The notes below the pieces were generated by a model that did not search any database, had not been told where the DNA came from, and was given only the letters and a program-made list of their open reading frames with translations. A DNA stretch of 7,570 nucleotides from a virus (taxonomy: Duplodnaviria; Heunggongvirae; Uroviricota; Caudoviricetes): IMG/VR virus record IMGVR_UViG_2740892272_000003. One strand, written 5' to 3'. The translations under genes and the position numbers were made by a program. This document shows, piece after piece, positions 5,513 to 5,700 of the stretch (its first letter is position 1; every line of letters begins with the position of its first letter).

Positions 5513-5700
5513 GGGGTGTTAGCCAGCCAGACCCGGCATGATTACTGCCCCCAGTCGTCCATGATCCGGGGGGTGATGTCACCGGGTCTGGTGGGGCGCT
5601 GGTAACCGCTAATAGGGGTCAGGTCAGGCACTTTTGCCGGGACCGTCTGTAACGTGGATGCCGGTACCTGCTCCCCGTGGTTATCTGGTTAACCCATATA
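5513..5700 (+). ncRNA. Candidate IS110-type bridge (guide) RNA in the element left end
   Basis: About 200 bp of GC-rich non-coding sequence with several local inverted repeats (for example GGTGatgtCACC and GGCActttTGCC) lies between the left-end -10 box and the transposase RBS. It contains an internal copy of the right-end 9-mer TAATAGGGG. Assignment is by analogy with IS621, where the left end encodes the bridge RNA. Confidence 0.3.

What the first reader, a model, noticed from the sequence alone, without database searches (positions are those of the whole stretch)
5609..5620. Exact 9-mer shared between the left-end interior and the right terminus of the IS
TAATAGGGG occurs at 5610-5618 inside the putative ncRNA region and again at 6925-6933 at the inferred right terminus, in both cases preceded by CT. 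A bridge RNA donor-binding loop must carry sequence matching the element ends, so an internal copy of the terminus is what such a guide segment would look like. A 9-mer match between a ~230-bp and a ~30-bp segment by chance is expected only around a few percent of the time (rough estimate).
Basis: seen in the sequence. Interest (0 to 1): 0.6.

Follow-up and report, generated by a model that had tools for sequence, protein, structure and literature searches.

The report
ISEc20 bridge RNA donor guide
The repeated 9-mer is real and is the part of the ISEc20 insertion sequence's own guide ("bridge") RNA that reads the element's right end, an expected feature of the already described IS110 family mechanism, not a new kind of system.

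Summary
TAATAGGGG occurs exactly twice in the window, at 5610-5618 and 6925-6933. The detail "preceded by CT in both" is wrong (GC versus CT). The element is ISEc20/ISSfl4, an IS110-family insertion sequence present in 1463 of 5426 complete E. coli genomes.

In 59 related left ends, helices supported by compensatory changes flank the internal copy. It therefore forms the 5' strand (5609-5621) of the second internal loop of the left-end RNA. The 3' strand of that loop carries GUAACG, the complement of the left terminus CGTTAC.

Across 37 distinct relatives, the loop and the right end share an 8-nt block, ATAGGG[G/A]C:
- The G/A position changes together in both copies (27 G/G, 9 A/A, 1 exception). 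This happened in two separate clades.
- The last position varies only C to U, and only in the RNA copy, as G.U wobble pairing allows.

The leading TA is a lineage-specific extension.

The first loop (CCCCC/GGGGGG) matches the poly-C insertion sites. The exact crossover dinucleotide is unresolved; CA in the donor against CC in the target is favoured. The finding is a new member of a known kind and of modest interest.

The parts
5357..5482 (.). Run of 126 N with CCCC on both sides. It is a scaffold gap, not part of the element.
   Evidence: Locus L120 carries the same insertion at the same site. It is 99.0% identical to window 5149-5356 and 99.95% identical to 5483-7570. It reads ATATCCCGCCCCGTTAC without interruption, and its single CCCC aligns to both sides of the N run.
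5486..6935 (+). ISEc20/ISSfl4 copy of the IS110 family, from CGTTAC to TAATAGGGGCA. The boundaries carry an uncertainty of 1 nt on each side because both ends abut C tracts.
   Evidence: Megablast finds it in 1463 of 5426 E. coli genomes, annotated as an IS110-like ISEc20 family transposase. Copies in different contexts diverge outside these limits. Empty sites were found.
5486..5491 (+). Left terminus CGTTAC. This is the right-donor half-site (RD) that the 3' strand of the donor loop reads.
   Evidence: GTTAC starts every related left end examined. The base before it is C in 66 of 66 distinct left junctions.
5489..5494 (+). TACTTT, a candidate -10 box of a promoter that is completed only when the two ends are joined.
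   Evidence: The matching box in relatives is TAC[T/C][A/T]T. It lies 17-18 nt from the conserved TTGAC[A/G] if the joint is GGGGCAC|GTTAC. This is an inference; the scan of the linear window found no promoter.
5501..5517 (+). 5' hairpin of the left-end RNA. Its loop holds TATAAT at 5507-5512.
   Evidence: Helix 1 of the alignment has 6 of 7 pairs with changes on both sides.
5526..5592 (+). First stem-loop, the candidate target-binding loop. Outer stem 5526-5536/5582-5592; inner stem 5539-5542/5578-5581.
   Evidence: Helix 2 has 7 of 15 pairs with changes on both sides and 98.8% of cells paired.
5548..5552 (+). CCCCC, the candidate left target guide. It has the same sequence as the C's left of the element.
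   Evidence: It is nearly invariant in 59 relatives. Left junctions carry 4-5 C immediately before GTTAC.
5568..5575 (+). GGGGGG plus UG, the candidate right target guide plus the core or handshake positions. It is the complement of CA-CCCCCC at the right junction.
   Evidence: Right junctions read A then six C, after which composition is random. Element L075 has GGGGUG and its right flank reads CACACCCC.
5594..5675 (+). Second stem-loop, the donor-binding loop. Outer helices 5594-5599/5670-5675 and 5601-5608/5662-5668; inner hairpin 5622-5628/5637-5644.
   Evidence: Helix 5 has 8 of 12 pairs with changes on both sides. Helices 8 and 9 have 4 of 5.
5610..5619 (+). The finding itself: UAAUAGGGG plus U, the left donor guide on the 5' strand of the donor loop. 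[quoted passage not shown]
   Evidence: Exact 9-mer. It is a loop strand between covarying helices. It covaries with the right end.
5649..5656 (+). GUAACG plus UG, the right donor guide on the 3' strand of the donor loop. It is the complement of CGTTAC and, in the joined form, of CA-CGTTAC.
   Evidence: GTAACGTGGATG is invariant in 59 relatives, and GTTAC is invariant at the left terminus. Because both are invariant, no covariation test is possible.
5714..6910 (+). Recombinase gene, 398 aa.
   Evidence: Pfam DEDD_Tnp_IS110 (E 7e-49) and Transposase_20 (E 7e-22). The C-terminal domain aligns to the solved IS621 and ISCro4 recombinases, with the SGSS serine motif conserved.
6916..6921 (+). TTGACA, a candidate -35 box in the right end.
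   Evidence: TTGAC[A/G] sits at a fixed distance from the right end in all relatives listed, both proteobacterial and actinobacterial.
6925..6935 (+). TAATAGGGGCA, the left-donor half-site (LD) at the right terminus. It contains the second copy of the 9-mer.
6936..6942 (+). C7 tract of the target, retained to the right of the element.
   Evidence: Ten empty versions of this site read ATATCCCG-C6 or C7-GACAG (also L005).

Best explanation
Window 5486-6935 is a copy of ISEc20/ISSfl4, an IS110-family insertion sequence. Its 227-nt left end encodes a bridge RNA with a 5' hairpin and two stem-loops, each interrupted by an internal loop.

The 9-mer at 5610-5618 is the left donor guide. It lies on the 5' strand of the second (donor-binding) loop. 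[quoted passage not shown] In ISEc20 this gives 10 pairs, 5610-5619 with 6925-6934, the last being G.U. In relatives it gives 8 pairs (ATAGGGGC).

[quoted passage not shown] Together the two strands hold the joined right-left ends of the excised element.

The first loop (CCCCC at 5548-5552 and GGGGGG at 5568-5573) reads the two strands of a poly-C target, and the recombinase exchanges strands.

What is shown here: the repeat, its place between covarying helices, its covariation with the right end, the complementarity of the other three loop strands, and the poly-C insertion sites.

What is inferred from the IS621 work: that the RNA is made, that the pairing happens, and the chemistry.

Favoured register (about 55%): donor ATAGGGG-CA-CGTTAC. 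The exchanged dinucleotide is CA in the donor and usually CC in the target. The guide then covers 7 nt plus the first core base, as in IS621.
For: The recombinase has both IS110-family domains and aligns to solved IS621 and ISCro4. The supplement of Durrant et al. 2024 lists ISSfl4/ISEc20 in the IS110 group with the RNA in the left end.

The structure comes from 59 relatives. Overall, 25 of 56 pairs have changes on both sides, and every measure exceeds all 500 shuffles and all slid controls. The helices immediately flanking the motif are among those supported.

Guide and right end share ATAGGG[G/A]C at the same two places in 37 distinct elements. The variable G/A position reads G/G in 27, A/A in 9 and mismatches in 1. 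None of 20,000 partner permutations matched this, and the tool count is GC 27, AU 9. The A/A state sits in two clades separated by G/G lineages.

The next position is C in every right end but C (29), U (7) or A (1) in the RNA copy. That asymmetry fits RNA-DNA pairing with wobble.

GUAAC(G) and GTTAC are complementary in all relatives. Insertion junctions carry 4-5 C to the left and A plus 6 C to the right. Empty sites are C5-C10 tracts.

For the register, junctions that are not pure C tracts read GGGGCA-C-[flank]. L119 in yecD has the target C5-T-C5 split exactly between C5 and T. L051 shows the same pattern. With that joint, the conserved TTGAC[A/G] lies 17-18 nt from TAC[T/C][A/T]T.
Against: - There is no transcript, binding or recombination evidence for this element.
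- Rfam has no matching family.
- Single-sequence folds are unstable: UAAUA is unpaired but GGGG is paired, with different partners depending on the ends chosen.
- RNAalifold can pair the guide strand with the opposite strand of the same loop in 97-100% of cells, though with no double-sided change. The free RNA may therefore be closed there.
- Covariation rests on one variable position with two independent events. The other guide positions never vary.
- The guide does not pair with the second core base. The TA extension does not covary in most relatives: 7 elements have A in the guide but C in the right end.
- The core register does not fit pure C-tract sites. At the window's own site there are 4 C to the left and 7 to the right, against 6-7 in ten empty sites. 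In cah the numbers are 3 and 6 against 6.
- Some assemblies used (L007-L014) are error-prone.
Confidence: 0.88

Rival explanations
1. The two copies are a direct repeat read by the recombinase protein (a subterminal binding site), not by an RNA.
For: The block is conserved in sequence at both places in all relatives. Six of its eight positions never vary, so most of the match would also fit a protein-binding site. Durrant et al. describe short subterminal repeats (ATA...TAT) in IS110 donors, and ATA is part of this block.
Against: The internal copy sits on one strand of a loop bounded by helices with compensatory changes, which indicates an RNA structure. Its last position tolerates C to U only in the internal copy (7 of 37), never in the right end. 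That is the signature of G.U wobble and has no meaning for a duplex-DNA protein site. A protein site repeated in direct orientation 1.3 kb apart has no role in the solved IS621 complexes, where the loop RNA reads these bases.
Confidence: 0.05
2. The internal motif is conserved only because it pairs inside the RNA, with the opposite strand of the same loop. Its likeness to the right end has another cause or none.
For: RNAalifold pairs 5609-5619 with 5645-5657, and 97-100% of cells are pairable (helices 6 and 7). The G-to-A change keeps a pair with U there (G.U to A-U).
Against: None of those 9 pairs shows a change on both sides. Intramolecular pairing cannot explain why the right end, 1.3 kb away and identical rather than complementary, makes the same G-to-A change in two separate clades.
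Confidence: 0.04
3. The repeat is a chance 9-mer match.
For: The window holds 210 same-strand 9-mer repeat pairs. The position-specific chance is about 1-2%.
Against: The same two positions share a block of at least 7-8 nt in 53 of 57 related elements from two phyla, with concerted change.
Confidence: 0.01
4. The function is the same (donor guide) but the register differs. The crossover dinucleotide is CC in both donor and target: donor GGGGCA-CC-CGTTAC, with A as the last, unpaired base of the left donor.
For: At five E. coli sites the number of C's right of the element equals the whole tract of common empty alleles: the window site, 7 or 6; cah, 6; dgcE, 6; the prophage site, 7. Three or more C's lie to the left. 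GGGGGG-UG would then read CC plus CCCC, and its UG would act as a handshake guide for the donor's CA, as in IS621. Tandem copies are joined by GGGGCA-CCCC-GTTAC.
Against: L119 in yecD has only one C between GGGGCA and the target's T, and L051 is likewise. The junction promoter spacer would be 19-20 nt. The right donor guide would need a bulged U. C-tract lengths differ between strains at one site (5/7/9, 6/7, 8/9/10), so counts are weak evidence.
Confidence: 0.35

Closest known systems
IS621 bridge RNA (E. coli, IS110 family; Durrant et al. 2024, PMC11208160; Hiraizumi et al. 2024, PMC11208158)
   Same: - The recombinase has the same two domains.
- The RNA is encoded in a long left end, upstream of the gene.
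- The RNA has a 5' hairpin and two internal loops.
- The 5' strand of loop 2 is identical to the right end; the 3' strand of loop 2 is complementary to the left end.
- The 5' and 3' strands of loop 1 match the left and right target flanks.
- In the favoured register the guide covers 7 nt plus the first core base.
- The -35 box lies in the right end and the -10 box in the left end.
   Different: - The protein is only distantly related: just the C-terminal domain aligns, E 1e-14, and it is 398 aa against 326 aa.
- The target is a poly-C tract, not a REP sequence, so the two target guides are complementary homopolymers.
- The core is not CT.
- In ISEc20 the donor duplex is 10 bp.
- The target loop is almost invariant across two phyla, whereas in IS621 relatives it is the variable loop.
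ISBma3 (Burkholderia) and the type element IS110 (Streptomyces), grouped with ISEc20/ISSfl4 in one cluster by Durrant et al.
   Same: These elements share about 80% amino-acid identity with ISEc20. Their left-end RNA has the same architecture, guides (ATAGGGGC, GUAACG, CCCCC, GGGGGG) and poly-C flanks.
   Different: In these relatives the guide-donor match is 8 nt. Their right end reads ACATAGGGGCA and lacks the TA of ISEc20. The spacer from TTGACG to the end is 1 nt longer.
seekRNA of IS1111-group elements (Siddiquee et al. 2024, PMC11187229)
   Same: Both are element-encoded RNAs with segments matching the target and the element ends.
   Different: In IS1111-group elements the RNA lies in the right end, downstream of the gene, and there are long subterminal inverted repeats. 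Here the RNA is in the left end.

Membership tests
IS110-family bridge RNA system (IS110 group) | Recombinase with an N-terminal DEDD (RuvC-like) domain and a C-terminal Tnp domain carrying the catalytic serine. | tested here: met
   PF01548 scores 166 bits and PF02371 scores 78 bits. The query's RRSGSSIRG aligns with IS621's YESGSSVRG, and KTDARDA with KTDTVDA. The N-terminal alignment is weak.
IS110-family bridge RNA system (IS110 group) | Long non-coding left end and short right end, with the RNA encoded upstream of the recombinase gene. | tested here: met
   The left end is 5486-5713 (228 nt) and the right end is 6911-6935 (25 nt). The supplement of Durrant et al. places ISSfl4/ISEc20 in the class with the RNA in the left end.
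IS110-family bridge RNA system (IS110 group) | RNA fold with two internal loops bounded by conserved helices. | tested here: met
   Across 59 sequences, helices 1, 2, 5, 8 and 9 carry 25 pairs with changes on both sides. All controls were exceeded.
IS110-family bridge RNA system (IS110 group) | [quoted passage not shown] | tested here: met
   There is an 8-nt block shared in 37 distinct elements. The single variable position is concordant in 36 of 37, with two independent events, and variation at the next position is restricted to wobble.
IS110-family bridge RNA system (IS110 group) | [quoted passage not shown] | tested here: inconclusive
   GUAACG is complementary to CGTTAC in every relative, but both are invariant. 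The complementarity is therefore shown, while covariation cannot be tested.
IS110-family bridge RNA system (IS110 group) | The strands of loop 1 match the left and right flanks of insertion sites. | tested here: met
   CCCCC matches the 4-5 C to the left, and GGGGGG matches the 6 C to the right (66 left and 54 right distinct junctions). Empty sites are C tracts. One variant guide, L075 with GGGGUG, has a matching flank.
IS110-family bridge RNA system (IS110 group) | One core dinucleotide shared by donor and target and included in all four pairings (CT in IS621). | tested here: inconclusive
   The core is not CT. Clean junctions (L119, L051) point to CA in the donor against CC in the target. 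Counts in pure C tracts fit CC in both. The left donor guide pairs with the first core base at most.
IS110-family bridge RNA system (IS110 group) | The RNA is expressed and required for recombination, which proceeds through a circular intermediate. | not testable with these tools
   There is only indirect support: conserved -35 and -10 boxes that come together across the joined ends.
IS1111 group (seekRNA in the right end) | RNA downstream of the gene in a long right end, with long subterminal inverted repeats. | tested here: not met
   The right end is only 25 nt, and no long inverted repeats were seen at the ends.

The most novel reading that the evidence does not exclude
In this clade the dinucleotide exchanged during recombination differs between donor (CA) and usual target (CC). 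Natural junctions would then record which strand was inherited.

The left junction keeps the target's base: C in 60, T in 4 and A in 2 of 66. The right junction keeps the donor's A in 52 of 54. This is the pattern expected if only the top strand is transferred, the copy-out and top-strand-paste route proposed in the 2025-2026 preprints.

Because both target guides are homopolymers, they may bind the two strands of a C tract out of register. That would explain the 2-4 extra C's found at pure C-tract sites but not at the C5-T-C5 site in yecD.
Probability: 0.3. Interest if true: 0.6.

Novelty: new member of a known kind. Interest (0 to 1): 0.35.

Why it matters
The result gives ISEc20/ISSfl4, a common E. 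coli and Shigella insertion sequence, a specific map: guide, donor, target and candidate promoter. It also covers the ISBma3/IS110 clade, which has not been studied experimentally.

It shows that a single exact repeat between the left-end interior and the right end is a usable sequence-only sign of a bridge RNA donor guide.

The clade has practical interest for three reasons:
- Its target is a hypervariable poly-C tract, often inside genes (cah, dgcE, yecD and an alpha/beta hydrolase gene).
- Its target loop is almost unchanged between Proteobacteria and Actinobacteria.
- Its core is not CT.

If the donor and target cores really differ, existing genomes already hold evidence on whether one or both strands are transferred.

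Tried and rejected
- Rfam scan of the whole window at E up to 1: only a chance mir-200 match.
- Promoter scan of the linear sequence: nothing.
- Single-sequence folding: the result depends on the chosen ends and does not settle whether GGGG is free.
- Literature searches for ISEc20, ISSfl4 and ISBma3: no paper on their RNA.
- Search for the same occupied site in complete E. coli genomes: none found. The site was later found through the exact-protein look-up (L120).
- An early idea that the 126-N run hides a second element fragment was rejected. L120 shows an uninterrupted junction.
- Fixing the crossover register by counting C's at occupied and empty sites gave no consistent answer. The excess was 1 to 5 C's across six sites, because tract length varies between strains at the same site and some assemblies are error-prone.
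- Tandem copies (L087, L088) do not discriminate between the models.
- Variant left target guides (L016, L021, L039) did not visibly match their single flanks.

Full report
**Observation.** TAATAGGGG is present at 5610-5618 and 6925-6933 on the + strand and nowhere else in the window. The statement that CT precedes both copies is wrong. The contexts are ccgC|TAATAGGGG|Tcagg and aaCT|TAATAGGGG|Caccc. A 9-mer repeat as such is common here, with 210 same-strand pairs. A match between the 231-nt left end and the last 30 nt of the right end arose in 0.86% of 200,000 shuffles.

**What the element is.**
- The ORF 5714-6910 (398 aa) carries DEDD_Tnp_IS110 and Transposase_20.
- The stretch 5483-6954 matches 'IS110-like element ISEc20' at 99% or more in 1463 of 5426 complete E. 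coli genomes.
- Copies in four other contexts diverge to the left of (C)CCGTTAC and to the right of TAATAGGGGCA plus a C tract.
- Only the C-terminal domain aligns to the solved IS621 and ISCro4 recombinases (E 1e-14), with the serine motif kept.
- The supplement of Durrant et al. 2024 lists ISSfl4/ISEc20 in the IS110 group, with the RNA in the left end, clustered with IS110 and ISBma3.
- No paper treats the RNA of these elements, and Rfam has no match.

**The N run.** The 126 N at 5357-5482 lie between the left flank and the element, with CCCC on both sides. Locus L120 carries the same insertion and is 99.0% and 99.95% identical to the two sides. It reads ATATCCCGCCCCGTTAC without a break, and its single CCCC aligns to both sides of the gap. 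The N run is a scaffold gap and hides nothing.

**Relatives.** One scan of species-representative genomes gave 80 loci encoding proteins 73-100% identical. They come from Burkholderiales, other Proteobacteria and several actinobacterial genera. Their left ends align over the full length.

**Structure.** In 59 distinct left ends, RNAalifold and the pair counter give the following:
- a 5' hairpin (window 5501-5517);
- a first stem-loop with outer stem 5526-5536/5582-5592;
- a second stem-loop with outer helices 5594-5599/5670-5675 and 5601-5608/5662-5668, and inner hairpin 5622-5628/5637-5644.

Twenty-five of 56 pairs have changes on both sides. All measures exceed 500 of 500 shuffles and every slid control.

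The finding's coordinates (5609-5620) are exactly the 5' strand of the internal loop of the second stem-loop (5609-5621). The 3' strand of that loop is 5645-5661.

RNAalifold also pairs the two loop strands with each other, and CCCCC with GGGGG in the first loop. Those helices show no change on both sides in 17 pairs. Single-sequence folds leave UAAUA free and pair GGGG with varying partners.

**Covariation with the right end.** In 53 of 57 elements, the internal site about 100 nt before the start codon and the site 7-8 nt after the stop codon share ATAGGG[G/A]C. Over 37 distinct pairs of guide and right end:
- positions 1-6 never vary;
- position 7 is G/G in 27, A/A in 9 and U/G in 1, and 0 of 20,000 partner permutations do as well; the tool counts GC 27, AU 9;
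- position 8 is C in every right end but C (29), U (7) or A (1) in the RNA copy;
- the following base pairs in only 5;
- the two preceding bases match only in ISEc20 and three Leucobacter elements.

On a neighbour-joining tree of the recombinases, the A/A state occupies a Duganella clade and a separate actinobacterial clade, each with G/G neighbours. That means two independent double changes. The one-sided C-to-U variation is what pairing of an RNA with the bottom DNA strand allows.

**The other three guides.**
- GUAACG (5649-5654) is the complement of the left terminus CGTTAC. Both are invariant.
- Junction logos from 66 left and 54 right distinct junctions show 4-5 C before GTTAC, and A then six C after GGGGC, with random composition beyond.
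- These match CCCCC (5548-5552) and GGGGGG (5568-5573).
- L075 has GGGGUG, and its right flank reads CACACCCC.
- Empty sites are C tracts:

| Site | Empty-site sequence |
|---|---|
| Window site | ATATCCCG-C6 or C7-GACAG in ten genomes |
| cah | T-C6 |
| alpha/beta hydrolase | A-C8, with C9 and C10 alleles |
| Prophage site | C5, C7 and C9 |
| yecD and upstream of mdtA | C5-T-C5 |

**Comparison with IS621.** As defined by Durrant et al. and Hiraizumi et al., in IS621:
[quoted passage not shown] - the core is included in the pairings;
- two handshake bases follow the 3' guides;
- top strands are cut after the core.

All of these can be mapped here except the core.

**Register of the crossover: unresolved.**

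Evidence for the joint GGGGCAC|GTTAC:
- L119 in yecD splits C5-T-C5 exactly between C5 and T, and the inserted DNA is GTTAC...GGGGCAC.
- L051 has GGGGCAC followed by a host sequence that begins GTTAC.
- L012 and L014 have the right end fused to an internal mdtA site ...CCGC|GTTACC after a deletion of about 600 bp. Those two assemblies are error-prone.
- The conserved TTGAC[A/G] of the right end then lies 17-18 nt from TAC[T/C][A/T]T.
- Both 3' strands then read 6 nt plus UG, and the left donor guide reads 7 nt plus the first core base, as in IS621.
- The base after GGGGC is A in 52 of 54 right junctions. The matching base at the left junction is C in 60, T in 4 and A in 2. One site shows A in one genome and C in another (L118 and L115).

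Evidence for a CC core on both sides:
- In pure C tracts the whole tract of common empty alleles lies to the right of the element, and 3-5 further C's lie to the left.

Tract lengths vary between strains, so these counts are weak. I favour donor ATAGGGG-CA-CGTTAC with target core CC at about 55%.

**Mechanism.**
- Shown: the repeat, its loop position, the covariation, the complementarities and the targets.
- Inferred from IS621: transcription from a promoter assembled across the joined ends; binding of the joined ends by loop 2 and of a C tract by loop 1; and strand exchange by the DEDD/serine recombinase.
- Two preprints report that mainly the top strand is transferred. The asymmetric junction bases seen here would fit that, if the CA/CC reading is right.

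**Verdict.** It is an uncharacterised member of a known kind, with some unusual features: a poly-C target, a core that is not CT, and a target loop that is almost invariant across phyla.

Noticed in passing
window 5357-5482: A run of 126 N sits exactly at the left boundary of the element, with CCCC repeated on both sides. Locus L120 has the same insertion and no gap. The run is therefore a scaffold gap placed where a repeat breaks the assembly.
   Followed up: yes
window 6936-6942 and empty sites L005, L101-L110; also L090-L092, L098-L100: The poly-C target tracts differ in length between strains at the same site: 6 or 7 here, 5/7/9 at a prophage site, and 8/9/10 in an alpha/beta hydrolase gene, where the longer alleles are frameshifted. 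The element thus targets hypervariable homopolymer tracts, several of them inside genes.
   Followed up: partly
L087 1680-1700; L088 1680-1700 and 3132-3150: Two and three ISEc20 copies lie in direct tandem, joined by GGGGCA-CCCC-GTTAC. One joint lacks the A (GGGGC-CCCC-GTTAC).
   Followed up: partly
L012 and L014 right junction; empty version L089: The right end is fused to an internal mdtA site (...CCGC|GTTACC), with about 600 bp deleted. The new flank starts with GTTAC, like the element's own left end. This looks like recombination with a site matching only the donor guide.
   Followed up: partly
L016, L034, L039, L055, L027, L115: Some relatives have right ends that run into the C tract early (ATAG-C6, ATAGG-C11, ATAGGG-C9) or lack the A after GGGGC. 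The cause could be erosion, misassembly of G/C runs or off-register recombination.
   Followed up: no
loci L015-L086: Recombinases 73-82% identical to ISEc20 occur in both Proteobacteria and Actinobacteria, with nearly the same RNA loops. This points to recent transfer across phyla.
   Followed up: partly
window 84-5346, minus strand: The rest of the window looks like the lysis and packaging genes of a lambdoid prophage. The ORF sizes (71, 165, 158, 116, 167 and 577 aa) and their order match loci annotated as holin, lysozyme, lysis protein, HNH, and small and large terminase. The element sits just upstream of the holin gene.
   Followed up: partly
window 5507-5512: A perfect TATAAT lies in the loop of the 5' hairpin of the left end. 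No matching -35 box was found in the linear sequence.
   Followed up: no
window 6971-6997, minus strand: A terminator-like hairpin (AGGCCATCAG...CTGATGGCCT followed by a T run) lies just right of the element. It belongs to the host prophage sequence.
   Followed up: no
L009 and L010: In two genomes the right flank is the same as the window's, but the left flank is unrelated (...GGGAGCCCGCC|GTTAC). This suggests a rearrangement between ISEc20 copies.
   Followed up: no
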